Assembly: GCA_964349675.1 (NCBI GenBank)
Contig: CAYGHD010000001.1
Coordinates: 2,273 to 66,272 of the forward strand
Direction of reading: 5' to 3'
Source: an uncultured Candidatus Saccharibacteria bacterium
Lineage (GTDB): Bacteria; Patescibacteriota; Minisyncoccia; Phycocordibacterales; SBAW01
DNA: 64,000 nt
The first letter of the stretch is position 1, and every line of letters starts with the position of its first letter. Positions 145-53,284 of this stretch are shown piece after piece. The notes beneath the pieces were generated by a model. It saw nothing but the letters and a program-made list of their open reading frames with translations, searched no databases and was not told where the DNA came from. A program made the translations under genes and the position numbers.

Positions 145-3100
145 TTGCAATTTTGTATGTCGCATCCTAGATCCACGTTGCGTGTACTCCTCTCCAGTTT
201 TTTGTTTGTGTCCGCGGCGCTGCTGCCTGGCACGGTATTTGCGCACGGGGCTAATACAAAAGTCCACCATGTTTCTCCAGCAGTGGTACAAGAGCTGCAA
301 ACGCTCACTACAGGTCTTGTTGCAGCAGATCAACCTCTCTTATCGGCAGAAGCAGCAGCTGCTCAAAATGCGCTCGGGCAACAGGTAAACATTGCAGCAA
401 GACGATCAGCGCTGATGGAGCAGGTCGCGGCAGAAGATCCGACTGTTTTTTTACAGAATGTGCTGCCCAGCTCGATTCGTGAGCAATTACCGCCCGCAGT
501 GCAACTGATAATCGAACAGCCCGTGACATTGACCGGAGTTATGGAGGTGCTTCATGTTGATGATTTTTCAAACTCTGACAATTCTCACTTCACATACCAT
601 ATGCGTGTGGGTGATGTGCGGCTAGCTTTTTATCCAGTAGGCACACCGCCCGCGATGTCATCAGGCTCTACAGCACAGGTGACCGGGTATCGCATTGGGC
701 AGAGCGTGGTGGCGGTCGGGGGTTCTGGCGGTGTAGAGGTTCTAGAGCAGGCGCTCCCTGATGCAACAGGGGTGCAACGCACCTTGGCGGTGTTGGTAAC
801 TGCCCCCGGCAAACCAATATTGCTTACTCCAGCACAAGTCAAAGCAGCAGTTTTTTCTAGAGGTTTTCAGGCTTTTTATAAAGAGCAGTCATATAACAAA
901 GTCTCCTTTACTGGAGATACGACAGAATGGATAACCGTACCCGCATATGCAACGGATATGTGCTACGGTGGCGGCAGTCTCATTACGCTTTCTCAGACAG
1001 AAATACAAAACTATTTTGTTACTAAGAATATAGATCTCTCTCAATACGGCAGAGTCGTGCTGCTTATTAATGGGCTGAGTGGCGGGTGTGCCTATGTGGG
1101 GAAGGTGGGTCAAATGGTCAACAATAAAACCTACACGCTGTCTCTTGGCTGGGTCGGCTCTCCAACTTCTGTCCCAGCGGCAGGCACTCCAGGACTGACG
1201 ATGTTCGAATACGTGCTTGCGCATGAAGTGGGCCACGAGCTTGGGGTCATGCATGCTAATGCTTGGCATTGCGCGGGCCCTTCACTCGATGTGGATTGTA
1301 CACATGCAGAGTATGGCAACGGGTACGATGTGATGGGTGGCGGATACAGCGTGTCGCACTTTAATGCGTTTTATAAAAACCTGCTTGGATGGCTTGATGA
1401 TGCGTCAAAGGTCTCTATTACTACGGCCGGCACATATACAGTAGCTCCTCTGGAGACTGCCAGCGGCCTTCGTGCCGGCATCATTACAAACCCTGGGTCG
1501 CCTACGGCACAGCCACTGTATGTGGAATATCGCCGGCCAATTGGATTTGATGCAGGGCTCGTGCCAGCGTCTATAGGGCTTTTCCTTAATCAAGTTATTG
1601 CTCCCTCAACAGCATTTCCGTTCCCGCGTCTGTTGAATGCAAACTACGCAACCACGAATATCGGCGGGCAGATGCAGCCCTTAACGCAAGGCGGGGTGTT
1701 TAGCTGGAATACGCGGGGCATTAAAATTACTGCCAATACCGTTGCTACCTCTTCAGCCACTTTTGATGTTGTGTTTACGCCTCCAATATGTACCCGCGTA
1801 GGCATTACTGCGATTAATGTCTACGCAAGCGCGCCAGTGTTGTTGGGTGGCATAGGGTACGTGCAATTTGAGGCGATAAATAATGACACTGTTGGTTGCC
1901 CATCAAGCACAATATCTATTGCTCCAAGTATCGCCCCTTCGACGGGCACAACGCTGTCTCAGTATCCGACAGGCTCAGTCACCCTTGCTCCAGGGGAATC
2001 GTCGTATTTTACGGTCTGGTTTTATACGTCACAAAGCAGCCTTGTTGGTGAAAGCGTTATCACAACAACTATCACAGACACTACTAACGCACGGACGCAC
2101 GTCTTTTCCAAAGCAGTCACTATTGTCGGTCCAAACACCCTCCCCCTGGGCTACTTTGATGCAGCAAATTGCACAACGCTCAGCGGATGGGCCTATGACC
2201 CAGATGTCGCATCGACTTCAATCAACGTGACCGTAAAAGAAGGCGACACTATCTTACTCACCACTCCCGCAAACAAACTTCGAAACGACGTCAACACCGC
2301 CCGCAACATTACCGGAAAACACGGCTTCTCCGTATCAACTCCGCTGAGCCTTAAAGACAACAAACCCCACACACTCAGCGCGTATGCAGTTGATAGTAAC
2401 GGAAAAGATGTGGCACAGCTGCAATTGAGCCCCAAGGCCATTACGTGTGGGGTAACGCCGCCAGCATCTGGGATTCTCCGCATTTCAAAAGATCCGAGCA
2501 GTCCAGCGTATCGTATTGTTTCTGGAGGAAATGAAGTGTTGTTGGGTAGCGTACACTTTAAAGCCACAAAAGAAGCTATGGCCCTGTCGCGTGTTGGAGT
2601 AACGTTGACGCAAGGCAAAATACAAGATGTAGAGCAGGTGAGTGTCTATGATGGCACAACACTGTTGGGCACTGCGCTGTTCACTACCACAAGCACGACT
2701 ACTGTTTTGTTTTCGACACTGACACATCTTCCACAAGACACAAACAAAACACTGACACTTAAAGCAACACTGGCACAGGTTGGGGGAGGCAAGCCTGGAG
2801 TGAGTGGCGACTTAGTGAAAATAGACGTAACGGCTGCTGGCACCTATGGAGTGGGCGCCTCATCAGACACGGTAGTCCCAGTGATAGGGACGACCACGTT
2901 TGCTGGTGTGCGGGTGTTTCGCAGCTATCCAACTGTTACGCTCGACCCACTTCCTGCGAACCTGACTGATACAAGACTGATGCGATTTAAAGTCACTGCT
3001 GATGCGTCGGGTGCCGTGTATCTGTACAGGGTAGGACTCTCTGTGTCTCCTGAGTTTGGGATAGTGAAAGCTGTTAATGTATTTGGTTTTACCGACTCGC

Positions 3101-3828
3101 TTTACACAAGCCCAATCCAAGGTCTCTCAGCGGGCGGCAAAATTCGCGTCAAAGATCTCTGTGCCGCTGGCTGTAGCGCGACATCAACCGTGCTCAGGTT
3201 TATTGCACAGACTGCCGCAGCTGCTCCGACGGTAATTACTATCCCCGCAGGGCAGACGCGATATTTTGAAGTACGCGGAGATCTATCTGGTACGGGCACT
3301 GGGCCGTATGGAGTTACCACAACGCTTTTGTATGACAAAGGGTACGGCGGTGTGTCCACTGCAACGGGCGTGCCCGGACATTTTATTTGGTCAGATAACG
3401 CTGTGGGCACCATAAGTTTGACCGACAAAGATTTTATGAATGGACAAGGCGTCCCAGGATTAGCGCCCTTGGGTTTGATGCAGGCTCGAGAGGTTGCTGC
3501 CTCGGGCGTCCTCCCCCTCGGCTACTTTGATGCAGCAAATTGCACAACGCTCAGCGGATGGGCCTATGACCCAGATGTCGCATCGACTTCAATCAACGTG
3601 ACCGTAAAAGAAGGCGACACTATCTTACTCACCACTCCCGCAAACAAACTTCGAAACGACGTCAACACCGCCCGCAACATTACCGGAAAACACGGCTTCT
3701 CCGTATCAACTCCGCTGAGCCTTAAAGACAACAAACCCCACACACTCAGCGCGTATGCAGTTGATAGTAACGGAAAAGATGTGGCACAGCTGCAATTGAG
3801 TCCCAAGGCCATTACGTGTGGGGCATAG
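145..3828 (+). CDS. Secreted metzincin-like zinc metalloprotease (1227 aa) with duplicated C-terminal domain
   Basis: N-terminal signal-peptide-like stretch (LLSSFLFVSAALLPGTVFA); HEVGHELGVMH fits the HExxHxxGxxH metzincin zinc motif; long Thr/Ser/Val-rich beta-like C-terminal region; the same ~104-aa domain occurs twice. Confidence 0.6.
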   Translation: MQFCMSHPRSTLRVLLSSFLFVSAALLPGTVFAHGANTKVHHVSPAVVQELQTLTTGLVAADQPLLSAEAAAAQNALGQQVNIAARRSALMEQVAAEDPTVFLQNVLPSSIREQLPPAVQLIIEQPVTLTGVMEVLHVDDFSNSDNSHFTYHMRVGDVRLAFYPVGTPPAMSSGSTAQVTGYRIGQSVVAVGGSGGVEVLEQALPDATGVQRTLAVLVTAPGKPILLTPAQVKAAVFSRGFQAFYKEQSYNKVSFTGDTTEWITVPAYATDMCYGGGSLITLSQTEIQNYFVTKNIDLSQYGRVVLLINGLSGGCAYVGKVGQMVNNKTYTLSLGWVGSPTSVPAAGTPGLTMFEYVLAHEVGHELGVMHANAWHCAGPSLDVDCTHAEYGNGYDVMGGGYSVSHFNAFYKNLLGWLDDASKVSITTAGTYTVAPLETASGLRAGIITNPGSPTAQPLYVEYRRPIGFDAGLVPASIGLFLNQVIAPSTAFPFPRLLNANYATTNIGGQMQPLTQGGVFSWNTRGIKITANTVATSSATFDVVFTPPICTRVGITAINVYASAPVLLGGIGYVQFEAINNDTVGCPSSTISIAPSIAPSTGTTLSQYPTGSVTLAPGESSYFTVWFYTSQSSLVGESVITTTITDTTNARTHVFSKAVTIVGPNTLPLGYFDAANCTTLSGWAYDPDVASTSINVTVKEGDTILLTTPANKLRNDVNTARNITGKHGFSVSTPLSLKDNKPHTLSAYAVDSNGKDVAQLQLSPKAITCGVTPPASGILRISKDPSSPAYRIVSGGNEVLLGSVHFKATKEAMALSRVGVTLTQGKIQDVEQVSVYDGTTLLGTALFTTTSTTTVLFSTLTHLPQDTNKTLTLKATLAQVGGGKPGVSGDLVKIDVTAAGTYGVGASSDTVVPVIGTTTFAGVRVFRSYPTVTLDPLPANLTDTRLMRFKVTADASGAVYLYRVGLSVSPEFGIVKAVNVFGFTDSLYTSPIQGLSAGGKIRVKDLCAAGCSATSTVLRFIAQTAAAAPTVITIPAGQTRYFEVRGDLSGTGTGPYGVTTTLLYDKGYGGVSTATGVPGHFIWSDNAVGTISLTDKDFMNGQGVPGLAPLGLMQAREVAASGVLPLGYFDAANCTTLSGWAYDPDVASTSINVTVKEGDTILLTTPANKLRNDVNTARNITGKHGFSVSTPLSLKDNKPHTLSAYAVDSNGKDVAQLQLSPKAITCGA
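2141..2452 (+). repeat. Internal direct repeat copy 1 (~312 bp) inside the metalloprotease gene
   Basis: Matches 3512..3823 at an offset of 1371 bp; only two nucleotide differences seen, both synonymous (ctg/ctc Leu, agc/agt Ser). Confidence 0.85.
3512..3823 (+). repeat. Internal direct repeat copy 2 (~312 bp), at the 3' end of the metalloprotease gene
   Basis: Near-identical to 2141..2452; the encoded peptide LPLGYFDAANCTTLSGWAYDPD...AITCG is identical in both copies. Confidence 0.85.
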
Positions 3829-7166: not shown

Positions 7167-7415
7167 TTGCTATACTTAACTCATATGTCAAAAGAGATGA
7201 GTGTTATTGTGCTCGGCGTTCTTGTCATGCTAATTCCGTATCTTGGAATCCCCGGTTCATGGCGAACACTATTGTTAGTGGTTGTGGGTGTCGCGGTAAC
7301 CATACTCGGATTTTTGCTCCGTGGTGAAACAATCTCTCAAGGTACAAGAAAGACGGAGCATCTCCCTTTTGTTGATAGTGCAGGCAATCCTCTCGGAAAG
7401 AGCGATGAACTCTAA
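7167..7415 (+). CDS. Small hydrophobic protein (82 aa, 2 predicted TM helices)
   Basis: ORF with two hydrophobic stretches; overlaps the start of the next gene by 11 bp; no recognisable family. Confidence 0.3.
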   Translation: MLYLTHMSKEMSVIVLGVLVMLIPYLGIPGSWRTLLLVVVGVAVTILGFLLRGETISQGTRKTEHLPFVDSAGNPLGKSDEL

Positions 7416-8688
7416 ACAGCACAACACCCCCGCGTCCACACTTCTGCATATCGGGTTGGTGACTGTTGCGCTGTGCGTCTCTTTGGGGGTGGGGGCGTAT
7501 GTGTTGCTTCGAGGCGACACCGTGTCCCATGCGCAACCGGTTGTGGTTGAAACAATGGCTGCAGTGGCTCCAAAACCCTCTGTAGCGTATGTACAAACTC
7601 CTGCAGCAGTAAAAGCTATCTACATGTCCCAATGCGTGGTTGGAACGCCGACGTTTAGAGATGAGCTTGTTGCATTTATTGATGACAGTGAGCTTAACGC
7701 GGTGGTTATTGATATTCAAGATTACACAGGAAAGATCGCATTTCCAACGGATAATCCGCTTTTGCATGATGCAGTGTCACAAAAATGCGGAGCCGACGAT
7801 ATGAAGGACTTTATTGCCACGCTGCATGAAAAAGGGATTTACGTGATTGGGCGTATCACTGTGTTTCAAAACCCTTACTATGCGAGCGTGCATCCAGAGC
7901 AAGCAGTACAGAAAAAAAGTGGCGGCGTATGGAAAGACTTTAACGGTCTTGCGTTTGTTGATGTTGGCGCAAAAGCATATTGGGACTATGTAGTCGAGCT
8001 GGGTCGAGTGTCGCACGAACTTGGATTTGATGAGTTGAACTTTGATTATGTGCGCTACCCTTCAGACGGGCCAATGTCTGAGGCAGTGTATACGCATAGT
8101 CTAGGAAAGAGTAAAGCACAGATGCTCGAAGATTTTTTTGCGTACCTGACAGGGCGCTTGCGGCTGCAAGAAACTCCAGATGCCCCAGTGCCTACTCTCT
8201 CTGCTGACGTGTTTGGGATGGTTGCAACCAACACAGATGATGTTGGTATTGGCCAAGTACTTGAAAGAACGTTGCCATATTTTGACTATGTCTCACCGAT
8301 GATATATCCATCGCACTACCACACGGGGTTCCATGGATATGATGACGTTAATGCACATGCCTATGACATTGTGAAGTATGCGATGCAGACAGCGGTAGCG
8401 CGTACGGTTGCCACCACAACCCGGGTGGCAACAAACAATGGGGTCAAGGTGACATCCCCTGTCCCTGCAGCGCAAGAAGTTTTGGATAGGGCGCCGCTCT
8501 ATGTAAAGGAATCGTACGTTGCGTCAAAGATCCGCCCATGGCTCCAAAGTTTTGATTACCCGGTCGCCTATACTCCGGATATGGTGCGGGCACAGATCAA
8601 AGCAACACAAGAAGCCGGTGTCGAATCCTATTTGTTTTGGGATGCTGCCAACAAATATACGTCGTTGCGTAAGGTGCTGTTGCCATAA
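7405..8688 (+). CDS. Membrane-anchored putative glycoside hydrolase (DUF4015/COG1306-like TIM barrel)
   Basis: N-terminal TM anchor (LLHIGLVTVALCVSLGVGAYVLL); motifs NAVVIDIQDYTGKIAFP and ELNFDYVRYPSDG recalled as characteristic of the DUF4015 putative glycosyl-hydrolase family; start chosen at internal ATG 7405. Confidence 0.5.
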   Translation: MNSKQHNTPASTLLHIGLVTVALCVSLGVGAYVLLRGDTVSHAQPVVVETMAAVAPKPSVAYVQTPAAVKAIYMSQCVVGTPTFRDELVAFIDDSELNAVVIDIQDYTGKIAFPTDNPLLHDAVSQKCGADDMKDFIATLHEKGIYVIGRITVFQNPYYASVHPEQAVQKKSGGVWKDFNGLAFVDVGAKAYWDYVVELGRVSHELGFDELNFDYVRYPSDGPMSEAVYTHSLGKSKAQMLEDFFAYLTGRLRLQETPDAPVPTLSADVFGMVATNTDDVGIGQVLERTLPYFDYVSPMIYPSHYHTGFHGYDDVNAHAYDIVKYAMQTAVARTVATTTRVATNNGVKVTSPVPAAQEVLDRAPLYVKESYVASKIRPWLQSFDYPVAYTPDMVRAQIKATQEAGVESYLFWDAANKYTSLRKVLLP

Positions 8689-8728: not shown

Positions 8729-10558
8729 ATGCAGGAAGATCCAAACAAAATAACATTCTTTGCCCAAACAAATTCTCGCGGCAAAGAGACGCCGTTTGGG
8801 ATTAAGCGTAAAGACCGCGCCCGCCATATGTATGTGATTGGCAAGACCGGCATGGGTAAATCAACCCTGCTTGAAAACATGGCCATTCAGGATATCCGAA
8901 ATGGCGAAGGGCTCGCGTTTATCGATCCACACGGCTCAACAGCGGACAGAATTATGGAATACGTGCCCGAGCATCGCATCAAAGATGTGGTTTACTTTGC
9001 GCCCTTTGATATGGACTATCCGGTGGCCTTTAATGTGATGGAAGACGTTGGATATGACAAACGCCATTTGGTGGTATCTGGTCTTTTGTCTGCGTTTCGC
9101 AAAATCTGGGTTGACGCTTGGAGTGCTCGCATGGAATATATTTTGTCCAACACACTGCTTGCCCTGCTTGAATATGAAGGTGCAACACTGCTTGATGTAA
9201 ATCGCATGCTGGTGAACAAGGTGTTTCGCAAAAAGGTAGTAGAAAATGTTACAGACCCAATTGTGAAGAGTTTTTGGGTCGATGAATTTGCGAATTATAC
9301 TGACCGCTATACACAAGATGCTACACCTGCCATACAGAACAAGGTAGGGCAGTTTACGAGCAATCCACTGATTCGTAACATTGTTGGGCAGCCAAAATCC
9401 TCTTTTGATATACGGCAAATTATGGATGAGAAAAAAATACTCATCATGAACTTGTCAAAAGGCCGCGTGGGCGAGGTAAACGCAACCCTGTTGGGCTCAA
9501 TGCTTGTTACTAAAATATACTTGGCGGCAATGTCTCGCGCAGATGTGCCAGCACAGACGCTTGCGACGCTGCCGAATTTCTACTTCTATGTTGACGAATT
9601 TCAAAACTTTGCCAATGAGTCATTCTCTGACATTTTATCGGAGGCTCGCAAATATAAACTTAATTTAATTATCGCGCACCAGTACATCGAGCAGATGGAA
9701 GAGGAGGTGCGTGACGCTGTGTTTGGCAACGTGGGTACTACTGTTGCATTTCGGGTAGGACCGTTTGATGCTGAAGTGCTTGAAACTATATTCCAACCGC
9801 AATTTACGCAAACAGACCTAGTTAATTTAGGATTCGCACAGATCTACCTGACTCTGATGATAGACGGTGTCGGGTCGCCCCCTTTTTCTGCGACTACCAT
9901 CGCCCCGTTTGATCTGCCGCCAGAGCGGTTTACTGATGTCGTACTCCAAAACTCACGGATGCAATTTGCAAAACATCGAGAAGCGGTTGAAGCCGCACTC
10001 GCGGTATGGCAAGAAGTAGATAATGCAAAACCGAAAGTGCAAAGCGAGGCCGCTCGACCAAAACCCATTGCCTCGAGTGCTCCGCAGGCGCCTGTAGCGG
10101 CGGTGGTGCCCAGACCCTACGTACCTCCGGCACGCCCAGTGCCTACACAGGTTCCTGTAGAAAAACCAACACCCTATGTGCCGCCAACTCCAACTCCAAC
10201 TCCAACTCCAGCTCCAGCTCCAGCTCCCATACAAAAACCCGTTGATGTGCATCCTAAACCCTATCAGCCGGTGGTACAAAAGCCGCAGACTCCAAAGCCA
10301 ATGCCAGAGCGGCCTCCACTTGGGGGTGCAAAAAGCCTCAGAGAGGCGCTTGCACAAGTTACTCATAGTAAAGGGGTGACGCCAGCTGTTCCTGCTCCGC
10401 GGCCCGTATCCAATGGGGTACATGCGCCCGACTTAAAAGAGACCTTACACAAGGTTGCAGAACATGCAGAAAAAAAGTCTCCACCAAAAGCAGCATTGCC
10501 AGAAGCACTACTACGTGAAATGCTCGCTGTTGACGAGTTACCTGATGAAAAAGCGTAA
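8729..10558 (+). CDS. VirD4/TraG-type (type IV secretion coupling-protein-like) P-loop ATPase with Pro/Thr-rich C-terminal tail
   Basis: Walker A HMYVIGKTGMGKSTLLENM followed by FIDPHGS (compare the DPKG motif of TraG/VirD4); DEFQNF Walker-B-like; ~150-aa low-complexity C-terminal tail (PTPTPTPTPAPAPAP, KP/PV-rich). Confidence 0.5.
   Translation: MQEDPNKITFFAQTNSRGKETPFGIKRKDRARHMYVIGKTGMGKSTLLENMAIQDIRNGEGLAFIDPHGSTADRIMEYVPEHRIKDVVYFAPFDMDYPVAFNVMEDVGYDKRHLVVSGLLSAFRKIWVDAWSARMEYILSNTLLALLEYEGATLLDVNRMLVNKVFRKKVVENVTDPIVKSFWVDEFANYTDRYTQDATPAIQNKVGQFTSNPLIRNIVGQPKSSFDIRQIMDEKKILIMNLSKGRVGEVNATLLGSMLVTKIYLAAMSRADVPAQTLATLPNFYFYVDEFQNFANESFSDILSEARKYKLNLIIAHQYIEQMEEEVRDAVFGNVGTTVAFRVGPFDAEVLETIFQPQFTQTDLVNLGFAQIYLTLMIDGVGSPPFSATTIAPFDLPPERFTDVVLQNSRMQFAKHREAVEAALAVWQEVDNAKPKVQSEAARPKPIASSAPQAPVAAVVPRPYVPPARPVPTQVPVEKPTPYVPPTPTPTPTPAPAPAPIQKPVDVHPKPYQPVVQKPQTPKPMPERPPLGGAKSLREALAQVTHSKGVTPAVPAPRPVSNGVHAPDLKETLHKVAEHAEKKSPPKAALPEALLREMLAVDELPDEKA
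10190..10232 (+). repeat. Hexanucleotide microsatellite (ccaact)x3 then (ccagct)x3 inside the coding sequence
   Basis: Read directly: ccaactccaactccaactccagctccagctccagctcc, encoding PTPTPTPAPAPAP. Confidence 0.8.
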
Positions 10559-11390
10559 CTGCGCTCGCACAATATCTTTTTTACTATGCGTCGTCAGTCT
10601 GGGTGTGCCGTGTGCGGCGACTGCCGCGGTTACTATAACCGAAGCGATGTACAATCCTGCGGGGAGTGACACCGGGCGTGAGTGGATAGAATTACATAAT
10701 AGCGGCAGCGAGGCGGTAGAGGTTTCGGCTGGGCAAAAAGGGTGGCGCATAAACGATGGCGCAAACCATGTGTTTGGAAGTAACGTAGTGATACCTCCCG
10801 GTGGGTTTGTTATAGTCGCCAGCAACCCCGTGGCGTTTGCGGCGCAGTACGGCAGCGGGTTATTGGTTGTTAAATCAGCGTTGAGTCTTAATAATGCGGG
10901 CGGCACACTTTCTTTGCTTGATGCAGAGGGAAAAATTGTAGACACGGTTTCGTATACAAAAAGCATTGGTGGACTTGAAGATGGTATGTCACTGCATAGG
11001 GTGGGTAGCGGTTTTGCACCGGGCACCCCAAACCCAGGCGTTGCACCAGCTCCAGGTGTCCCTAAAAGTGCGTCGCCTGCACAAAAAACGACGGCATCAA
11101 CTGCCGCTGCGCCAAAAATACAACAAAAGAAAACTGTAGTGGAGCAATCTGCTCGAGCTGTCGACAAGTCTGAATTGCCGGCTGCCGCTGCTGCGCAACA
11201 AAGCACCCACACCGGAGAGTTAGACTCTCCGGTTGGTCTGCCAAAGCAAGGAGGGTTTTTATGGCATTATGTTTTGGCGCTGACTGCGCTCGTGGTCCTT
11301 GGGGTGGCGAGCGTCTGGTATATCCGTGCTGAAAAACAGGCGAAGCAGTATGAAACCCCTGCTTCGGTGGATGAGTTTGATATAGAATAA
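10545..11390 (+). CDS. Lamin-tail-domain (LTD) protein with signal peptide and C-terminal TM anchor
   Basis: ITEAMYNPAGSDTGREWIELHNSGSEAVEVS is the canonical LTD motif; N-terminal hydrophobic signal (ISFLLCVVSLGVPCAATAA); Ala/Pro/Gly linker; C-terminal TM (WHYVLALTALVVLGVASVWYI); start at ATG 10545 overlaps the upstream stop by 14 bp. Confidence 0.6.
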   Translation: MKKRNCARTISFLLCVVSLGVPCAATAAVTITEAMYNPAGSDTGREWIELHNSGSEAVEVSAGQKGWRINDGANHVFGSNVVIPPGGFVIVASNPVAFAAQYGSGLLVVKSALSLNNAGGTLSLLDAEGKIVDTVSYTKSIGGLEDGMSLHRVGSGFAPGTPNPGVAPAPGVPKSASPAQKTTASTAAAPKIQQKKTVVEQSARAVDKSELPAAAAAQQSTHTGELDSPVGLPKQGGFLWHYVLALTALVVLGVASVWYIRAEKQAKQYETPASVDEFDIE

Positions 11391-12624: not shown

Positions 12625-13572
12625 GTGATTAATATTCTATACGTGGTCATTCTGTTGGGTATCCTGGTTTCTGTATACAGGATGCATGAGCTTGAGAATA
12701 ATATTTTGTATTGGGTTATGTTGCTGGGGGTTTTGCTCCTATTGCTGATCTCCAAGCGGTTAAATCCTAAAACTCCAAGGACCAACTCCGTTGCTGGTAA
12801 AGTAATAGCGACAAATACAAAAGAGCGTTTTCCTACGTGGTATCGGTTGCGTCGTCTCATTCGCGGTGTCGTGTTAATTGGTTGTGGAATTGCACTGTTC
12901 GCCCTGTGCTGGTTCCTGGTGACCCACTATTCTCAATGGCTACTGTCAGGAAAAGAATATATTGCCCTGTCTACAAACGCCCATGCGATGGTCTCGCTGG
13001 TGTTAGCCTTTTTCTTGGGTCTTGTTTGGGGTAGTTTTTTGCTTAGCCCTTTAGACCGTATTTTCTCGAGCGCTGCATACCGCCTGAAGAAAAATCACTC
13101 CAAGGGAGGGAATGGCAAAACAAGAGGTAATTCAAAATCTTTTACAAAATCGTACCGTACGTTTACGATTATTTTTTCTTTTCTCACCGCTTCACTACTT
13201 TTTCTTGTGGCGGATAATTATTATTATGTCGACCAACAAGCCCTTCATTACAATTCATTCTTTGGGATTAGTGAGAAAAGTATACCTCTCGGTAAGCTGG
13301 AAAAGATTGAAGTAGCTGCCAGGAAAGGATCATCACGTCGGTTCCTTTCGGGTTCTTATTGGGAGTACGTATTAGTATTTAGCACGGGCGAAAAGTTTAA
13401 CCTAAGAGAAGCGGGAGCGACGGATTTGAAAGAATTAGACACACTTCTTATGGGGAAAAATATCCCAGTCGAAGTTACAAGATTAGATGACAATGCAAGG
13501 GTGTGGGTAACTAGTAACGCCTGGCCGGATGTTCAAGAGTTGTTTAAGCAAGTACTTAGCAGAAGTCGATAA
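12625..13572 (+). CDS. Hypothetical membrane protein (multi-TM N-terminal half, soluble C-terminal half)
   Basis: Several hydrophobic helices; no recognisable motif; lies in an AT-richer segment. Confidence 0.35.
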   Translation: MINILYVVILLGILVSVYRMHELENNILYWVMLLGVLLLLLISKRLNPKTPRTNSVAGKVIATNTKERFPTWYRLRRLIRGVVLIGCGIALFALCWFLVTHYSQWLLSGKEYIALSTNAHAMVSLVLAFFLGLVWGSFLLSPLDRIFSSAAYRLKKNHSKGGNGKTRGNSKSFTKSYRTFTIIFSFLTASLLFLVADNYYYVDQQALHYNSFFGISEKSIPLGKLEKIEVAARKGSSRRFLSGSYWEYVLVFSTGEKFNLREAGATDLKELDTLLMGKNIPVEVTRLDDNARVWVTSNAWPDVQELFKQVLSRSR

Positions 13573-13838: not shown

Positions 13839-14510
13839 ATGAACAAATACCTAGTACTTTTGGTTCCTGTTTTGTTCCTTATGTTCGCTCAGTCAGTCGA
13901 TGCCCGAAGCACTTTTTCTGTAAAGGAGGGGTGGAATTTGGTGAGCACTGATGTTTTAGAAGACGCCATGAAAGACAAAAACGGGTTTGATGAGCTTCTT
14001 GCACAAGGTGGCGCCGTGTTCGGTTTAAGTTCTATTGATAAAAAATACTATGGTGGCAGTGGTAGTTGGGACAAGATAAATAAAAATCTACAAGACCTAT
14101 ATCGTTCGCTCCCTCGTGGCGATGAGTGTGGTGGTGACGACTGCGTTCCTGCTTTTGGTTGGTGGTTTTATAGTCCACGGAGTTTCTCTCTATCTGTTGA
14201 TTTCGACATATCTAGAGATAATCTCGATAATTATACTAAAGCGTATCGCCTCAATAGTGGTTGGAATCTTGTGGGTATAACCAATACGTTTCTCGGAAAA
14301 TCACTCACTGAAGTGCGAGGCTCTTGTGAGTTTGTTTCTGTCTACCATTACGAAAACGGGAGCTTCCGCAAACAAATGGACTCTGATTTAAGAGAGCGAA
14401 TGACTGAAGACTCCTTAGGGCATGCGCTTGCTGTTAAAGTACGCAATGATTGTGTATTCAGTTTCGACAAAGTGGTCACGCCCAAACAAATTCCCGCTAT
14501 TCCAGAGTAA
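13839..14510 (+). CDS. Secreted hypothetical protein (223 aa)
   Basis: Signal-peptide-like N-terminus MNKYLVLLVPVLFLMFAQSVDA; internal repeated GWNLV motif; no known family recognised. Confidence 0.4.
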   Translation: MNKYLVLLVPVLFLMFAQSVDARSTFSVKEGWNLVSTDVLEDAMKDKNGFDELLAQGGAVFGLSSIDKKYYGGSGSWDKINKNLQDLYRSLPRGDECGGDDCVPAFGWWFYSPRSFSLSVDFDISRDNLDNYTKAYRLNSGWNLVGITNTFLGKSLTEVRGSCEFVSVYHYENGSFRKQMDSDLRERMTEDSLGHALAVKVRNDCVFSFDKVVTPKQIPAIPE

Positions 14511-21975: not shown

Positions 21976-23386
21976 ATAGGATGCGATGGGGTCATATTTT
22001 CTTATGTGTGGTAGCGTGCTGTGCGATTATATTTTTTTCCACCTATAAATTATTTGAAAGCCCAGAAACCTGGATGGATGAAGGTTTCATCATTCAATCT
22101 GTCGTTGGTCTGCTCTACACTGGGGCGCTGGCGCTACCGGTGGCTCCAGGAGTATTTGAATCAGCGTGGTATATGACCACAGGTTTTCCTGTGGTGCTGC
22201 CGCTGGCTGGGGCGTTTGCGCTGTTCGGTCCCTCGCTTGAAGTTGCGCGGGTAGTTATGGTTTTGTTTTTGTTCAGTTTTTTTGCAGCAGTGTGGATATA
22301 TGCGCGTGCAGTATTTAGTGAACGGATAAGTTACTTGAGTGTATTTTTTTTGATCTGCTTCGCCCCCATATATGGAAATGGTCGCAATGTATTAGGCGAA
22401 GTTCCAGGGCTCCTCTTCATAGTGCTCACTCTGTCGCTCCTGCTCCCCAAGGATCCCTTAACGCCGAGACGAGCAACTTTGTTGGGCGTGGGAGCTGGTA
22501 TCGTAGTCGCGACGAAGCCCATCTTTATTCTTTTTGCCGCCGCGCTTATTGTGGTGCTTTTTTTCCGCAGGGATGAATATGCGCTACAAAAGCAGCTCAA
22601 GTTTTTTCTATTGGGTGCTTGGGTGCCAGTATGTTTTTGGTACGTACTGCAATTTGGCGATGCCACTATTCCTCAAATACTGACGCTATACGCAAATCCG
22701 CATACCATTCCGCTTCTCGACGCGCTGCAAAGCACGATGGTACGTTTTTATACCGAGGCGCAGCCAGCTTTTTTTCTCATGCTACTGATAGTGTGGGCGG
22801 TAAGTTATGGTATCCGTCGATTTCGGCGCGAGCCTGTTTCTGCTGCGGAAGAGGTGCTCCTACTTTTTTCCGTGCTGGTCTTATGTTTGTACTTGCGTAC
22901 CGCTGGGTATTATCGATATTTTTTCCGGCACAAGTATTCGCTCTGCTGTACCTACCGAGCGCGGCGTTGTACATAGGGCGGCAGATGCGTATCCGTGGGT
23001 TTGTTATAGCCGGACTTCTTGGACTACTTTTACTTCTCTCATATGAGACACTATTTCGCTCATGGGTTGCTGTGCATTATCGGGCGACACGGACAGAGGC
23101 TTTAGCTCAGTATTTTGCTACAGTACCGGCAGATCAATCATTGTTCATATACCAAGCGCCCGAGGCGGCTCCTTTTGCTCTTGGTCATCAATTTTACCAA
23201 TATGCCCAGGTTGTACCGGGGTTGCATGCTGGCGCGCAGTGGGCACCCAAAGTGTTGGCGGGCGATGCCGCGGTGGTTTTGACGTCTCAAGGTATTTTTG
23301 GGGCTCAAAAAGATACCACTTTTGCAAAATATCGGATTTCTGAGACCATAGATGATTACGTCATTCTAGTGCCAAAACAGCGCTAG
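21972..23386 (+). pseudogene. Multi-TM membrane protein (GT-C-like?) split by an apparent frameshift near 22880-22900
   Basis: ORF 21972..22976 (frame 0) and ORF 22619..23386 (frame 2) both code hydrophobic helices across 22860-22930. Each has non-protein-like Arg-rich translation outside the overlap, consistent with one gene that changes frame. Confidence 0.4.
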
Positions 23387-29430: not shown

Positions 29431-30312
29431 ATGGAACAGCAAGAAAATACTTGGCTATTGGAAAAACGGAGGAATGACACATCTTCTCATGGTGAAGACG
29501 GTATTATTGAAGCGATATTCGAAGTGATTGGCGGAGGGGCGTGGTGCGTCGAATTGGGGGCGCTTAATGGGACGCATGACAGTAATGTATGGACGCTTAT
29601 CCAGAAAAAAAACTGGAGCGGAGTGTTGCTCGAGGCGGATGCGACGTATTTTGAAAAATTGAAAAAAGCATATGCTGGTAACCCGCGTGCGCATTGCATC
29701 CAATCATTTGTATCGTTTGCTGGAGACTCATCGCTCGATATGTTGTTGGCACAAACGCCAATACCAAAAACGTTCGACCTATTTTCCCTTGATGTGGATG
29801 GAAATGAGTACCATCTTTGGGATTCAATGGAGGCATATCGACCTCGGGTTATGGTGGTGGAGTTTAACCCGTCAATCCCAAACAGTGTGTCTTTTGTGCA
29901 GCCGAAAGATATGTCTGTGTATCAAGGATCGTCCTTGCGTGCACTGGTCGGGCTTGGGCAGCGCAAAGGATATGAGCTGGTGGCGGCAAACGAATTGAAT
30001 GCCTTTTTTGTGTTACGAGAGCTCTTTCCTTTGTTCAATATTGCTGACAATAGCATTGAGGTGCTCCATACAGATACACAGTTTCAAACCATGCTGTACC
30101 AACTTTACGACGGCACGCTTAAAATTGCTGGTAATACTCACTTAATTTGGCATCAGCTACCCATAGCAGAAGAACTGCTCCAAGTGCTACCTAAAGCAAA
30201 ACGTGCCTACCCAGCACGCATCAGTACTTCTGGTTTGATGCGTAGTATAAAATACTATGTGCGCAAATTGCCAGTATACTCAATACTGCAGCGTATCCGG
30301 CGGCAATTTTAG
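29431..30312 (+). CDS. FkbM-family methyltransferase
   Basis: CVELGALNGTHDSNVWTLIQKKNWSGVLLEADATYFEKL resembles the Methyltransf_21 (FkbM) core. Confidence 0.45.
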   Translation: MEQQENTWLLEKRRNDTSSHGEDGIIEAIFEVIGGGAWCVELGALNGTHDSNVWTLIQKKNWSGVLLEADATYFEKLKKAYAGNPRAHCIQSFVSFAGDSSLDMLLAQTPIPKTFDLFSLDVDGNEYHLWDSMEAYRPRVMVVEFNPSIPNSVSFVQPKDMSVYQGSSLRALVGLGQRKGYELVAANELNAFFVLRELFPLFNIADNSIEVLHTDTQFQTMLYQLYDGTLKIAGNTHLIWHQLPIAEELLQVLPKAKRAYPARISTSGLMRSIKYYVRKLPVYSILQRIRRQF

Positions 30313-35447: not shown

Positions 35448-36080
35448 TTACAGACGATCCAAGTGAGCCAACGCCTCTTCGGGGGTGGGCAGAAGCCCTT
35501 GCGCTTGGTAGGTGAAGATGCGCGTAATTTCGCTGACGAGTAGACTGGCTGGCGTGCCGACCACTTTGCCTTGTGAATGACGCACTGAGGCATTCCAATC
35601 CAGCTCTCCAAGGCGCGGGTGTATGCGCAGCGTCGGATAGTAGATCTGTGCAGCCAACACGGCCGACATGAATGCCCGCATAAGGTGGAAGGGCGGCGCG
35701 ACAATTGCGACGCTTCGCATGTCTTTCTCTTTCGCGAAACGGACCATCGCCTGCATTTCGCTCAAGGTGTGGACGATGCGCTTGCCTCCAACAGTGATGA
35801 ATGAATCGTAAATATAGCGGAAGTTCCGAGGGTCTCTGTCCCGCTCTATCAGCGCTTCTGTCCATACATCGCTACCGGGGTAACCGAAAACCTCTTCGGT
35901 ATTGGGGTACCCAATGAAGCCGATAAGGCCAGACCAATTGAGTGTCTGGTCGAGCACGCTGTCTTGGTTGTCTCTGGTTTGTCCCACCAGATATAACATG
36001 TGGGTGTGGCCAGGGACGTCCTCGACACCCGCCTTCTCCAGTTTCGCGTAGAGTTCGTACAACTTTGCCGGGTTCAGCAT
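35448..36080 (-). CDS. DUF218 (YdcF/ElyC/SanA-like) domain protein
   Basis: SVAIVAPPFHLMRAFMSAVLAA resembles the DUF218 core; GC-rich gene on the opposite strand to its neighbours. Confidence 0.45.
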   Translation of the reverse strand: MLNPAKLYELYAKLEKAGVEDVPGHTHMLYLVGQTRDNQDSVLDQTLNWSGLIGFIGYPNTEEVFGYPGSDVWTEALIERDRDPRNFRYIYDSFITVGGKRIVHTLSEMQAMVRFAKEKDMRSVAIVAPPFHLMRAFMSAVLAAQIYYPTLRIHPRLGELDWNASVRHSQGKVVGTPASLLVSEITRIFTYQAQGLLPTPEEALAHLDRL

Positions 36081-52255: not shown

Positions 52256-53284
52256 TTGATGGAAAAGACATTTCTCGCTTTTGCGAGAGACATGGGTGCT
52301 GCCAACACGGTGGTGCCTATTGCGATACAGTTGAGAACGCTCGGACACACCGTCTTCATCTGCCTCGACCAAGGCGGCAAAGCGGTAGAGCAGTATCCGT
52401 CATTCACGGCGGTATATCAGCCAGCATACTTCAATTATCTTCTGGGTCAGCGCAAAGTAGATGCGATTCTCAACGGGCTCTCATCGCCGCGCGGCGACCT
52501 GGAGCTCTGGCTGGACGCCAATGCTCCGCTGCTGCGCGACACTCCACTGCTGGTGCAGTGTGAAGACTATTGGGGCGCGCACACGCGTTCGAGGGTGGCT
52601 CCTGATGCGCTCATCACAATTGACAACACGGCGCGGAGATTGGCTCGAGCCGCTGGCGTACGTTCGCGGATATGCACTGCAGGATTTGCCGGCGTCTCTC
52701 CGGTAGATCCAAGTGCGCATATTCAGCTCGTGATGCAGCAGCATCGCGCACAGACGCCCGGTGTGCAGATCTTGGTGTACCCAGATGGTGGACCAGAATG
52801 TGAGCTCGCGCTCCCTCGGCTCGTTGAGTCGATTTTGCAGACACGTGCGCCGGTTATGCTGGTCCCAAAATTCCATCCAAAGTTCAAAAAGGTGAGGCAT
52901 CCGCGGGGCGGCACATGGGATCAATGGTGCCGGCAACAGTTGGTACCGCTGTACAATGCGGACAAGGTCATCGATGTTGAAGGTCCCACCAATCAAGTCA
53001 TCGCCTGCGCTGACGGTGTCGCATCCGGGTATTCAACGCTTTTGATGCGGCCGGCGACTACAGGCAAGCTCGCGCTCACGCTTTGGGACGGGGCAGTCGA
53101 AACAGAGCTCCGCAAGGAGACAGGTCTCGCGCAGACCCCGCTTATGCTGCAGCGCAAGCGCTTCCCGTACCTGACGAGCGTCATGCCGCTCGATGAGTTC
53201 TTTACTGTCGCACAGCCGACGCTCGCTTTGCCGCCCCTACAGCCGGGCAAAGCAGCTGACTTTGTGCTCTCGCTCCTGACGTAG
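52256..53284 (+). CDS. Hypothetical protein (342 aa), GC-rich; possible GT-B-like or epimerase-like fold
   Basis: No motif confidently recognised; followed by tandem terminators. Confidence 0.3.
   Translation: MMEKTFLAFARDMGAANTVVPIAIQLRTLGHTVFICLDQGGKAVEQYPSFTAVYQPAYFNYLLGQRKVDAILNGLSSPRGDLELWLDANAPLLRDTPLLVQCEDYWGAHTRSRVAPDALITIDNTARRLARAAGVRSRICTAGFAGVSPVDPSAHIQLVMQQHRAQTPGVQILVYPDGGPECELALPRLVESILQTRAPVMLVPKFHPKFKKVRHPRGGTWDQWCRQQLVPLYNADKVIDVEGPTNQVIACADGVASGYSTLLMRPATTGKLALTLWDGAVETELRKETGLAQTPLMLQRKRFPYLTSVMPLDEFFTVAQPTLALPPLQPGKAADFVLSLLT

What the first reader, a model, noticed from the sequence alone, without database searches (positions are those of the whole stretch)
8729..11390. 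VirD4/TraG-like ATPase with a Pro/Thr-rich tail overlapping a lamin-tail-domain membrane protein: possible DNA-handling surface module
The ATPase has a Walker A plus FIDPHG motif like coupling proteins, and a ~150-aa low-complexity tail (PTPTPTPAPAPAP, KP-rich) atypical for cytoplasmic T4CPs. Its last codons overlap the start of an LTD protein with signal peptide and C-terminal anchor. LTDs are often found on extracellular nucleases or competence-type DNA binders. No VirB4, VirB6, relaxase or pilin is nearby, so this pair is not part of an obvious conjugative element and may act in DNA uptake or surface display instead.
Basis: partly seen in the sequence, partly recalled or inferred. Interest (0 to 1): 0.5.

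Follow-up and report, generated by a model that had tools for sequence, protein, structure and literature searches.

The report
Domesticated coupling-protein ATPase with surface-protein partner
A motor protein of the kind that normally feeds DNA into bacterial conjugation machines has become a highly conserved chromosomal gene in these ultra-small (Patescibacteria) bacteria, always made together with a cell-surface protein; what it now does is unknown.

Summary
ORF 8729-10558 encodes a 609-aa ATPase. Its first ~430 residues are a type IV coupling protein (T4CP) fold. Four Pfam T4CP/HerA-type models pass their thresholds, and TrwB is the best Foldseek hit. The last ~175 residues are a basic, Pro-rich disordered tail. 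ORF 10545-11390 overlaps it by 14 nt and encodes a signal peptide, a lamin-tail domain (LTD), a linker and a C-terminal membrane anchor.

The window is a Paceibacteria-type chromosome. No type IV secretion (T4SS), relaxase, pilin or competence gene was found among its ORFs of at least 150 aa. The pair lies between murD-murC-rsmI and a ~46-kb surface-glycan cluster.

The pair is syntenic. An LTD-type or LTD/PKD-type anchored surface protein lies directly downstream in about 60 of 74 informative related genomes. It also does so in four distant loci, at least one of them in a quite different neighbourhood. The ATPase core is the most conserved gene locally (72-91% identity, against 45-60% for MurD, MurC and RsmI).

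Distant relatives carry an N-terminal DUF8128 domain. In Bacillus plasmid pBM69 such a protein sits beside a relaxase and VirB4. This is therefore a domesticated, shortened T4CP.

Function is unresolved. Orphan patescibacterial T4CP homologues were already reported in 2025.

The parts
8729..10558 (+). T4CP-family ATPase, 609 aa, with no N-terminal membrane domain
   Evidence: Pfam TrwB_AAD_bind 33.7 bits, TraG-D_C 30.5, DUF87 23.9 and T4SS-DNA_transf 20.9, all above their cut-offs. AlphaFold2 core pLDDT 92.4. TrwB is the top Foldseek hit. 72-91% identical in 80 related genomes.
8840..8866 (+). Walker A motif GKTGMGKST (aa 38-46)
   Evidence: Sequence. G38, G41, G43 and K44 are invariant in 117 homologues.
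8918..8935 (+). FIDPHG motif (aa 64-69)
   Evidence: Aligns with IVDPNG of TrwB. D66 and G69 are invariant.
9041..9433 (+). All-alpha domain inserted in the nucleotide-binding domain (about aa 105-235)
   Evidence: Eight consecutive helices, H109-H233, in the AlphaFold2 model. The Pfam TrwB_AAD_bind match spans aa 28-343.
9578..9601 (+). Walker B motif FYFYVDEF (aa 284-291)
   Evidence: Sequence. D289 and E290 are at least 90% conserved and F291 is invariant.
10025..10555 (+). Disordered, basic, Pro-rich C-terminal tail (aa 433-609)
   Evidence: pLDDT about 50-60. pI 9.7 and 23% Pro. Tails of 71 of 80 relatives are net positive. Every relative has a tail, but composition and length vary.
10184..10227 (+). 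Hexanucleotide repeat (CCAACT x7.3) encoding the (PT)n(PA)n stretch
   Evidence: Tandem Repeats Finder. Eight residues are missing here in the 98%-identical P0001.
10334..10360 (+). Tail motif 1, SLREALAQV (aa 536-544)
   Evidence: Predicted helix 537-544. Recurs in relatives. The motif class occurs 1.68 times per tail against 0.06 in shuffled tails.
10430..10456 (+). Tail motif 2, DLKETLHKV (aa 568-576)
   Evidence: Predicted helix 569-576. Conserved as DLK[ED]xL in relatives.
10496..10537 (+). C-terminal tail motif 3, LPEALLREMLAVDE (aa 590-603)
   Evidence: Predicted helix 592-598, with the highest pLDDT of the tail (79 for aa 591-600). Conserved as LPE..LR.ML.VD or FEVPEE.L..IFK.
10545..11390 (+). 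Type I surface protein, 281 aa: signal peptide, LTD, Pro/Ala/Thr/Gln linker, membrane anchor, short cytoplasmic tail
   Evidence: LTD PF00932 69.7 bits. Hydropathy. A homologous gene lies directly downstream of the ATPase in about 60 of 74 related loci.
10614..10958 (+). Lamin-tail domain (aa 24-138), acidic
   Evidence: Pfam. The HMM-defined LTD segment of this protein has pI 4.9 and net charge -4.
11256..11324 (+). C-terminal membrane anchor FLWHYVLALTALVVLGVASVWYI (aa 238-260)
   Evidence: Hydropathy. The W-x-Y start of the anchor is conserved in relatives.
11367..11387 (+). Cytoplasmic C-terminal motif VDEFDIE
   Evidence: [DE]EF[DE]IE-type endings are conserved in the window's clade (L001-L034, L042) and absent in other clades.
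7167..7415 (+). Small two-helix membrane protein (82 aa); possible membrane partner, unproven
   Evidence: Conserved between rsmI and the ATPase in 43 of 80 loci by tblastn, and in loci whose ATPase is only 43-45% identical. Absent where the ATPase-LTD pair lies in another neighbourhood. No Pfam hit.

Best explanation
**What it is (well supported).** The ATPase is a chromosomal, vertically inherited descendant of the coupling proteins (T4CPs) of single-membrane (monoderm) conjugation systems.
- In that lineage an N-terminal DUF8128 domain precedes the motor.
- The Paceibacteria version has lost DUF8128 and any linkage to a relaxase or T4SS.
- It keeps an intact Walker A/B nucleotide-binding domain and the all-alpha domain.
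- It carries a basic disordered tail with three conserved short helical motifs.

**How it most likely works (inferred).**
- It assembles into a ring-shaped ATP-driven motor or substrate receptor at the cytoplasmic face of the membrane.
- The tail motifs act as docking sites for partners or substrates, as the C-terminal extensions of TraD and DotL do.
- It is co-translated with a type I surface protein (an LTD ectodomain, with a PKD domain as well in most relatives). That protein serves as a cell-surface or contact partner, analogous to the anchored adhesins of Gram-positive T4SSs.
- The most likely machine it serves is the patescibacterial chromosomal T4SS, which is encoded elsewhere and whose own cluster lacks a coupling protein.

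**Status of each step.**
- Shown: fold, motifs, ancestry, synteny, overlap of the two genes, conservation.
- Inferred: ring assembly, docking role of the tail, link to the T4SS, role of the LTD protein.
For: **Family and fold.**

**Ancestry.**
- Relatives about 50% identical are 850-1100 aa, with a membrane segment and DUF8128 in front of the ATPase.
- DUF8128 is a separate gene directly upstream in L087 and in 29 metagenomic loci.
- The pBM69 protein has a DUF8128-like N-domain (E 3.5e-26) and the ATPase (E 9e-45). It is followed by a Replic_Relax relaxase, conjugal transfer proteins and an AAA_10 VirB4.

**Synteny and coupling.**
- The custom LTD HMM hits the gene directly downstream in 55 of 74 informative loci.
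- Five more loci have the same anchored architecture without an LTD hit; two of these were scanned against Pfam and are PKD-only.
- The LTD domain starts a median of 48 nt after the ATPase stop, and within 150 nt in 42 of 57 cases.
- The pair persists at 49% identity in an unrelated neighbourhood with a 17-nt overlap (L084). It also occurs in L089, L117 and L140.

**Conservation.** The ATPase core is more conserved than MurD, MurC, RsmI and GT1 in every paired comparison, by 19-27 percentage points.

**Tail.** The motif class is about 28-fold enriched over shuffled tails. The motifs are predicted as helices.

**Literature.**
- T4CP homologues occur in 2,918 of 3,035 Patescibacteria genomes, and only 148 lie near virB4. 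VirB4 occurs in 2,417 assemblies (PMC12102498).
- The Southlakia T4SS cluster lacks a recognisable coupling protein (PMC10633639).
- T4CPs without a membrane domain that use small membrane partners are a recognised subfamily (PMC7434980).
Against: - No T4SS gene lies within 64 kb. The rest of the genome could not be examined.
- In Ca. Southlakia epibionticum the t4cp homologue was not essential although the T4SS was. T4CP homologues are also found in more assemblies than VirB4 (PMC12102498). It is not known whether that homologue belongs to this subfamily.
- The neighbourhoods are housekeeping ones: mur genes, rsmI and glycan synthesis here; dnaK-dnaJ, secDF, or mreB/murI/ddl in other lineages.
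- Conservation is very high, which is unusual for T4SS parts.
- The LTD partner is missing in about 14 of 74 loci.
- The cytoplasmic EF[DE]IE tail of the LTD protein exists in one clade only, so a direct tether is not general.
- The 80 loci were chosen as the best ATPase matches, which inflates the identity contrast somewhat.
Confidence: 0.45

Rival explanations
1. Exapted housekeeping motor that works without any T4SS. The T4CP-derived ATPase has been recruited to a core process at the membrane or envelope, for example handling of chromosomal DNA or of a protein or envelope substrate. The co-translated LTD/PKD protein would be its dedicated trans-membrane partner.
For: - The core is the most conserved gene of a core neighbourhood.
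- T4CP homologues are present in 96% of assemblies, against 80% for VirB4.
- The gene sits in conserved non-mobile contexts: alr-murD-murC-rsmI here; between dnaK and dnaJ in another clade; next to mreB, murI and ddl; next to secDF.
- Recurrent non-T4SS partners appear: a Cys-rich zf_Tbcl protein of about 570 aa, and a second ATPase paralogue.
- The authors of PMC12102498 themselves raise exaptation.
Against: - No concrete substrate or partner can be named.
- Gene order in small, streamlined genomes can be conserved without functional linkage.
- The homologue in Southlakia was dispensable in co-culture, which fits poorly with a core function.
- T4CP genes are often encoded far from virB4 anyway.
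Confidence: 0.3
2. DNA-uptake or surface DNA-handling module. The LTD protein binds extracellular DNA, and the ATPase pulls it in or handles it at the membrane.
For: - T4CPs are DNA-dependent ATPases (established knowledge).
- The ATPase tail is basic and could bind nucleic acid.
- LTDs occur on extracellular nucleases such as ExeM (PMC6085458).
- Patescibacteria depend on imported nucleotides (PMC12102498).
Against: - LTD domains of this family are acidic (median pI 4.3, net charge -9; 41 of 43 are net negative).
- The partner protein has no nuclease domain. Relatives add a PKD domain, which is typical of adhesion or surface proteins.
- No comEC, comEA, comF or pilus gene is in the window or in the flanks of related loci.
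- The ancestry is conjugative.
Confidence: 0.08
3. Remnant of an integrated conjugative or mobile element, or an anti-phage defence ATPase of the HerA or MADS type.
For: - Weak PADLOC hits to mad8 (43.7 bits) and to HerA models.
- Plasmid and phage homologues exist at 25-39% identity.
Against: - The position is the same in 80 species-level genomes, with no integrase, relaxase, tRNA or composition shift.
- Purifying selection is very strong.
- No partner gene of a defence system is present.
- The PADLOC scores are of the generic P-loop kind.
Confidence: 0.04

Closest known systems
VirD4/TrwB-type type IV coupling proteins (TrwB of R388, PDB 1E9R; Cag-beta; DotL)
   Different: Only 14-15% identical. 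No N-terminal membrane domain. The tail is basic and Pro-rich rather than Asp/Glu-rich. No relaxase or T4SS lies nearby. It is chromosomal, vertically inherited and far more conserved. It falls well below every curated NCBIfam equivalog cut-off.
DUF8128-type coupling proteins of Bacillus and other monoderm plasmids (e.g. pBM69 WP_003349917.1, annotated 'DUF87 domain-containing protein')
   Same: Closest non-patescibacterial relative examined: 28% identity over 97% of the core and HMM E 9e-45. The same ATPase lineage as the long patescibacterial forms.
   Different: The pBM69 protein has the DUF8128-like N-domain and sits beside a Replic_Relax relaxase and VirB4. The window protein has neither.
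Orphan T4CP homologues of Patescibacteria (Quinonero-Coronel et al. 2025, PMC12102498)
   Same: Almost certainly the same set of proteins: VirD4-like, present in nearly all Patescibacteria, rarely near virB4, with exaptation already suggested.
   Different: The passages of that paper read here do not mention the LTD partner, the overlap of the two genes, the conserved tail motifs, the short versus DUF8128 forms, or the extreme conservation. This is judged from text searches, not from a full reading of its tables.
T4CPs that lack a membrane domain and pair with a small membrane protein (TraJ and TraI of pIP501)
   Same: A soluble T4CP encoded next to small membrane proteins. Here those are an 82-aa two-helix protein upstream and a single-pass protein downstream.
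   Different: TraJ and TraI lie inside a conjugation operon. No interaction has been shown here. The small protein does not follow the ATPase into other neighbourhoods.
HerA and FtsK/SpoIIIE translocases
   Different: FtsK_SpoIIIE is below its cut-off. There is no NurA partner, no gamma domain and no N-terminal membrane domain. Structural similarity is lower than to TrwB or VirB4.
LTD-bearing extracellular proteins such as the nuclease ExeM of Shewanella (PMC6085458)
   Same: A secreted or surface protein that carries an LTD.
   Different: There is no catalytic domain here. The LTD is acidic. The protein is membrane-anchored and paired with an ATPase.

Membership tests
Type IV coupling protein (VirD4/TrwB family) | RecA-like nucleotide-binding domain with Walker A and Walker B motifs | tested here: met
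   GKTGMGKST and FYFYVDEF are present. The key residues are invariant or at least 90% conserved in 117 homologues.
Type IV coupling protein (VirD4/TrwB family) | All-alpha domain inserted in the nucleotide-binding domain; overall TrwB-like fold | tested here: met
Type IV coupling protein (VirD4/TrwB family) | N-terminal transmembrane domain | tested here: not met
   The conserved core starts at residue 1-8. No hydrophobic segment is present. A recognised T4CP subfamily also lacks it.
Type IV coupling protein (VirD4/TrwB family) | Encoded with, or functionally tied to, a relaxase and a VirB4-based T4SS | tested here: not met
   None was found in the 64-kb window or in the flanks of 80 related loci. 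The rest of the genome could not be searched.
Type IV coupling protein (VirD4/TrwB family) | Passes a curated equivalog model (TraD, CD1115 VirD4-like, TrbC and others) | tested here: not met
   The best scores are 45 bits against a cut-off of 366, and 42 bits against 250.
Type IV coupling protein (VirD4/TrwB family) | Hexamer with DNA-stimulated ATPase activity that couples a substrate to the channel | not testable with these tools
   Needs biochemistry or genetics.
DUF8128-type T4CP (long patescibacterial forms; Bacillus plasmid pBM69) | DUF8128 domain fused N-terminally or encoded directly upstream | tested here: not met
   A custom DUF8128 HMM and tblastn find nothing in the window or in L001-L080. 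It is present in relatives.
DUF8128-type T4CP (long patescibacterial forms; Bacillus plasmid pBM69) | ATPase domain homologous over its full length | tested here: met
   45-55% identity to the long patescibacterial forms. 28% identity over 97% of the core, and E 9e-45, to pBM69.
TMD-less T4CP with small membrane partner (TraJ/TraI pIP501 type) | An adjacent small membrane protein that recruits the soluble T4CP | tested here: inconclusive
   Candidates exist (7167-7415 upstream; the LTD protein downstream), but no interaction test was possible.
FtsK/SpoIIIE DNA translocase | FtsK_SpoIIIE motor domain, gamma domain and N-terminal membrane domain | tested here: not met
VirB4 | VirB4 N-terminal domain plus an AAA_10-type C-terminal domain | tested here: not met
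   No AAA_10 or CagE_TrbE_VirB hit at E <= 0.1. The TIGR00929 match covers the P-loop only. The fold of the C-terminal domain is similar.
HerA helicase | HerA central domain with a HAS barrel, and a NurA partner | tested here: inconclusive
Lamin-tail domain protein (PF00932) | LTD beta-sandwich domain | tested here: met
   69.7 bits against a cut-off of 34.3, aa 24-138.
Competence / DNA-uptake machinery | Homology or linkage to ComEA, ComEC, ComFA or pilus genes; a DNA-binding receptor | tested here: not met
   No such Pfam or NCBIfam hit for either protein or for any neighbour. The LTD is acidic.

The most novel reading that the evidence does not exclude
The T4CP-derived ATPase no longer serves a type IV secretion system at all. 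In Patescibacteria it would have become a core, T4SS-independent membrane-proximal motor. Its lineage-specific partners would be the LTD/PKD surface protein here, and DUF8128, a Cys-rich zinc-finger protein and a second ATPase paralogue elsewhere. It would act in a housekeeping process linked to envelope biogenesis or to DNA or protein handling. That would be a new cellular role for the coupling-protein fold.
Probability: 0.3. Interest if true: 0.75.

Novelty: new variant of a known kind. Interest (0 to 1): 0.5.

Why it matters
Patescibacteria make up a large share of bacterial diversity, yet their cell biology is largely unknown. Their type IV secretion system is the only one shown to be essential for its bearer, and it has no coupling protein in its own cluster.

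A coupling-protein descendant that is nearly universal in the phylum, under stronger constraint than the Mur ligases next to it, and hard-wired to a surface protein is a strong candidate for one of two things. It may be the missing coupling component, or it may be a repurposed motor.

The work here gives concrete handles for experiments:
- a defined gene pair;
- three conserved docking motifs in the tail;
- a clade-specific cytoplasmic motif on the partner protein;
- a traceable evolutionary series, from plasmid T4CP with DUF8128, to split DUF8128 plus ATPase, to ATPase plus LTD protein.

Tried and rejected
1. **FtsK-like or HerA-like classification.** Rejected on Pfam thresholds and structural ranking.
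2. **The upstream 82-aa two-helix protein as the split-off membrane domain of the T4CP.**
   - It keeps its place beside rsmI/DUF4015 even at 43-45% ATPase identity.
   - It does not accompany the ATPase-LTD pair in L084.
   - The real N-terminal module of the family is DUF8128, not two helices.
   - It is kept only as a possible partner.
3. **A DUF8128 gene hidden in the window.** None found by tblastn or HMM.
4. **Defence system.** Only weak generic PADLOC hits.
5. **Promoters or terminators that would separate the genes.** Counts are at shuffle expectation.
6. **RNA genes in the window.** No tRNA and no Rfam family.
7. **Literature on an LTD link in Patescibacteria, or on DUF8128.** Nothing found.
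8. **Exact-sequence look-up of the window's ATPase.** Not on record. The 98%-identical P0001 was used instead.
9. **Docking of the C-terminal motif on the core.** The motif has raised pLDDT, but model coordinates are not exposed, so this could not be checked.
10. **Direct tether between the cytoplasmic tail of the LTD protein and the ATPase.** Weakened, because that tail exists in one clade only while the ATPase tail motifs persist elsewhere.


Full report
**1. Observation**

ORF 8729-10558 (+) encodes 609 aa. A second ORF runs to 11390 and overlaps its end.

ATPase features, with positions:
- Walker A GKTGMGKST, aa 38-46.
- FIDPHG, aa 64-69.
- Walker B FYFYVDEF, aa 284-291.
- A tail from about aa 433 that is 23% proline and basic (pI 9.7).

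The PTPTPTPTPAPAPAP stretch is encoded by a hexanucleotide repeat (CCAACT x7.3, 10184-10227). It is 8 residues shorter in a 98%-identical relative. This most eye-catching part of the tail is therefore slippage-polymorphic.

The second gene most plausibly starts at ATG 10545, 14 nt before the ATPase stop codon. Its product has:
- a signal-peptide-like N-terminus;
- a lamin-tail domain (PF00932, 69.7 bits against a cut-off of 34.3);
- a Pro/Ala/Thr/Gln linker;
- a hydrophobic anchor (aa 238-260);
- a 21-residue tail that ends VDEFDIE.

Topology rests on hydropathy only.

**2. Host and neighbourhood**

Homologues are annotated from Paceibacteria, Adlerbacteria, Kaiserbacteria and other Patescibacteria.

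Gene order in the window is:
- a reprolysin-like protein, murD, murC, rsmI, an 82-aa two-helix membrane protein and a DUF4015 glycosidase-like protein;
- then the ATPase and the LTD protein;
- then about 46 kb of surface-glycan genes (GT4, GT2 and PMT-type transferases, rml genes, NeuB, methyltransferases, a carbamoyltransferase, an ABC exporter, Wzy_C);
- then murB and secA.

Every ORF of at least 150 aa on a plausible strand was scanned. No T4SS, relaxase, pilin or competence family appeared. The VirB4, relaxase and transfer proteins of plasmid pBM69 find nothing in the window. No tRNA, no Rfam family and no composition shift marks an island.

**3. What the ATPase is**

Sequence evidence:
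- Pfam TrwB_AAD_bind (33.7 bits), TraG-D_C (30.5), T4SS-DNA_transf (20.9) and DUF87 (23.9) all pass their cut-offs. FtsK_SpoIIIE does not.
- NCBIfam gives only sub-threshold matches to TraD and to a VirD4-like family.
- By sequence, the nearest solved structure is TrwB.

Structure evidence:
- An AlphaFold2 model of the core is confident (pLDDT 92.4, pTM 0.90).
- Foldseek ranks TrwB chains first (E 5e-14, TM 0.63-0.66 over the full length). HerA, Cag-beta, DotL, DndH-C and VirB4 follow.

The protein therefore lies in the VirD4/VirB4 branch of the HerA-FtsK superfamily, and the sequence models favour VirD4. It has no N-terminal membrane domain. That places it, by architecture, in the recognised group of T4CPs that lack a membrane domain (PMC7434980).

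**4. Ancestry**

An exhaustive search found 22,020 50%-identity clusters at E <= 0.001 and 5,958 at E <= 1e-30.
- Many relatives at about 50% identity are 850-1100 aa. They have an N-terminal membrane segment and a domain of about 380 aa (DUF8128, PF26449) in front of the ATPase.
- In L087 and in 29 metagenomic loci, DUF8128 is a separate gene directly upstream.
- Among plasmids the family has 676 hits, all below 60% identity, and 336 are in Bacillus.
- In Bacillus methanolicus pBM69 the homologue is an 833-aa protein. It has a DUF8128-like N-domain (E 3.5e-26) and the ATPase (E 9e-45). It is followed by a Replic_Relax relaxase, conjugal transfer proteins and an AAA_10 VirB4.

The window gene is thus a shortened, chromosomal descendant of a monoderm conjugative coupling protein. 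No DUF8128 is present in the window or in the flanks of 80 related loci.

**5. Conservation**

Across 80 species-level genomes the core is 72-91% identical (median 76%). In the same loci the medians are MurD 55%, MurC 49%, RsmI 59% and GT1 52%. The ATPase is the more conserved gene in every paired comparison.

Caveat: the loci are the 80 best ATPase matches out of at least 576, which exaggerates the contrast somewhat.

Residues 1-395 are nearly invariant, and the tail is not.

**6. The tail**

Every relative has a tail of roughly 90 to 370 residues.
- Composition follows the genome: Pro/Thr/Ala-rich here, Lys/Gln/Asn-rich elsewhere.
- 71 of 80 tails are net positive.
- Three short motifs recur: SLR[ED]ALAQV, DLK[ED]xLxxV, and a C-terminal LPE..LR.ML.VDE or FEVPEE.L..IFK.
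- The motif class occurs 1.68 times per tail, against 0.06 in shuffled tails.
- In the full-length model these are the only helices in an otherwise disordered tail (537-544, 569-576, 592-598). The last block has pLDDT 79.

This is the pattern of a flexible docking platform. In function it is comparable to the C-terminal extensions of TraD and DotL (my knowledge of those systems). It differs in charge.

**7. The partner gene**

A custom LTD profile hits the gene directly downstream, on the same strand, in 55 of 74 informative loci.
- 42 of these have a clear N-terminal LTD that begins within 150 nt of the ATPase stop (median 48 nt). That distance leaves room only for the signal peptide, so the start codons overlap or abut the stop.
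- Five more loci have the same architecture (signal peptide to C-terminal anchor) without an LTD hit. The two of these that were scanned against Pfam are PKD-only.
- About 14 loci have lost the gene.

Most relatives are about 460-500 aa, with LTD plus PKD. The window copy (281 aa) lacks PKD.

The pair also occurs outside this neighbourhood:
- at 49% ATPase identity in an unrelated neighbourhood, with a 17-nt overlap (L084);
- in L089, L117 and L140;
- at 43% identity in the mur-type neighbourhood (L083).

The linkage is therefore specific, not just frozen gene order.

The LTD domains are acidic (median pI 4.3, net charge -9). In the window's clade the partner ends in a conserved cytoplasmic [DE]EF[DE]IE motif. 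Other clades end at the anchor itself, with SPWTLG... or WPYLGL... motifs.

**8. Wider picture in Patescibacteria**

In other lineages the ATPase is accompanied by:
- DUF8128;
- a second, shorter ATPase paralogue, which in L084 has a degenerate Walker A;
- a recurrent Cys-rich protein of about 570 aa with treble-clef zinc fingers.

In one clade the genes lie between dnaK and dnaJ. Elsewhere they lie next to secDF, or next to mreB, murI and ddl.

Published work reports:
- VirD4-like homologues in 2,918 of 3,035 Patescibacteria genomes, only 148 of them near virB4;
- VirB4 in 2,417 assemblies;
- a non-essential t4cp homologue in Ca. Southlakia, although its T4SS is essential;
- a suggestion by the authors that exaptation may have occurred (PMC12102498).

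The Southlakia T4SS cluster itself lacks a recognisable coupling protein (PMC10633639).

**9. Interpretation**

Firmly supported: this is a domesticated ATPase of the T4CP lineage, co-translated with a type I LTD surface protein.

The mechanism is inferred. I favour (0.45) a ring-shaped motor or receptor at the membrane. Its tail motifs would recruit partners or substrates. It would most likely serve the chromosomal T4SS encoded elsewhere, with the LTD(-PKD) protein as the surface or contact component.

The main rival (0.30) is a T4SS-independent housekeeping role. The housekeeping contexts, the extreme conservation and a wider distribution than VirB4 all favour it.

A mobile-element remnant or a defence system (0.04) is contradicted by the fixed position and the strong constraint.

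**10. Limits**

- Only 64 kb of the genome is visible.
- Membrane topology is from hydropathy only.
- No multimer modelling or model coordinates were available.
- All relatives are metagenome-assembled genomes.

Noticed in passing
L043, L047, L052, L054, L065-L069, L074, L077-L080 and L040, L048, L067, L070, L071, L075 (C-termini of the genes downstream of the ATPase): The LTD/PKD partner proteins end in two conserved anchor types. One is ...[FH][RKS]SPWTLG[FL]LGV..LAGGAFI[LF]L at the very C-terminus. The other is ...WPYLGLIGV... followed by a few basic residues. Both resemble C-terminal sorting signals (motif, hydrophobic stretch, basic tail) and may mark a patescibacterial surface-anchoring pathway.
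   Followed up: partly
L089, L094, L098, L103, L106, L117 (e.g. L117:1075-2778): A Cys-rich protein family of about 560-585 aa, with treble-clef zinc fingers at both ends (zf_Tbcl and zf_Tbcl_2, below cut-off), recurs next to the T4CP-like ATPase in other Patescibacteria. L098 has three copies. It is absent from the window and from the Paceibacteria loci.
   Followed up: partly
L094, L098, L100, L101, L103, L106: In one patescibacterial clade one or two T4CP-like ATPase genes are inserted directly after dnaK. In L098, L100 and L106 dnaJ follows, and in L100 and L106 a membrane protein of about 195 aa with six or seven predicted helices comes after that. This is an unexpected chaperone-operon context for a coupling-protein homologue.
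   Followed up: partly
L084:6627-7961: Directly upstream of an ATPase-LTD pair lies a 444-aa paralogue of the ATPase with a degenerate Walker A (GRPRTHKS) and no Pfam hit. It may be an inactive partner subunit.
   Followed up: no
window 11428-57494: A co-directional surface-glycan cluster of about 46 kb. It holds many GT4, GT2, GT9 and PMT_2 transferases, rmlA-D-like genes, NeuB and a CMP-sugar synthetase, two C-methyltransferases, a TylF-like O-methyltransferase, a carbamoyltransferase, an ABC exporter and a Wzy_C/TPR protein. That is very large for a genome of roughly 0.5 Mb.
   Followed up: partly
window 145-3828: A 1227-aa ORF with only a weak reprolysin-like (M12B) metallopeptidase signature at aa about 292-404. 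A close relative has a 766-aa version at the same position (L169).
   Followed up: no
window 7167-7415 and 7321-8688: An 82-aa two-helix membrane protein overlaps the start of a DUF4015 (putative glycosyl hydrolase) membrane-anchored protein. This small-protein/DUF4015 pair is conserved between rsmI and the ATPase, even in loci whose ATPase is only 43-45% identical (L083, L088).
   Followed up: partly
window 12625-13572, 13839-14510, 22619-23386, 29431-30312, 35448-36080 (-), 52256-53284: Six ORFs with no Pfam family. 12625-13572 is a membrane protein, and 13839-14510 has an N-terminal signal-like segment. All lie inside the glycan cluster.
   Followed up: no
window 57618-58715: A protein with a PG_binding_1 domain and PKD domains lies just before murB. 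It is the only other Ig-like surface protein found in the window. The window copy of the LTD partner has lost the PKD domain that most relatives keep.
   Followed up: no
L088:1-1313 (-): A second TrwB_AAD_bind ATPase lies about 7 kb upstream of the conserved mur-ATPase array, next to Bro-N, HTH and methyltransferase genes. It probably belongs to a mobile element or prophage. Some Paceibacteria-like genomes therefore carry both a 'core' copy and a 'mobile' copy.
   Followed up: no
Plasmid search: H1, Sulfitobacter mediterraneus plasmid NZ_CP081110.1 99994-101181: The best plasmid match (39% identity, 395 aa, no tail, no DUF8128) is an isolated gene between transposases on a non-mobilizable alphaproteobacterial plasmid. 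508 of the 676 plasmid hits are on plasmids typed as non-mobilizable.
   Followed up: partly
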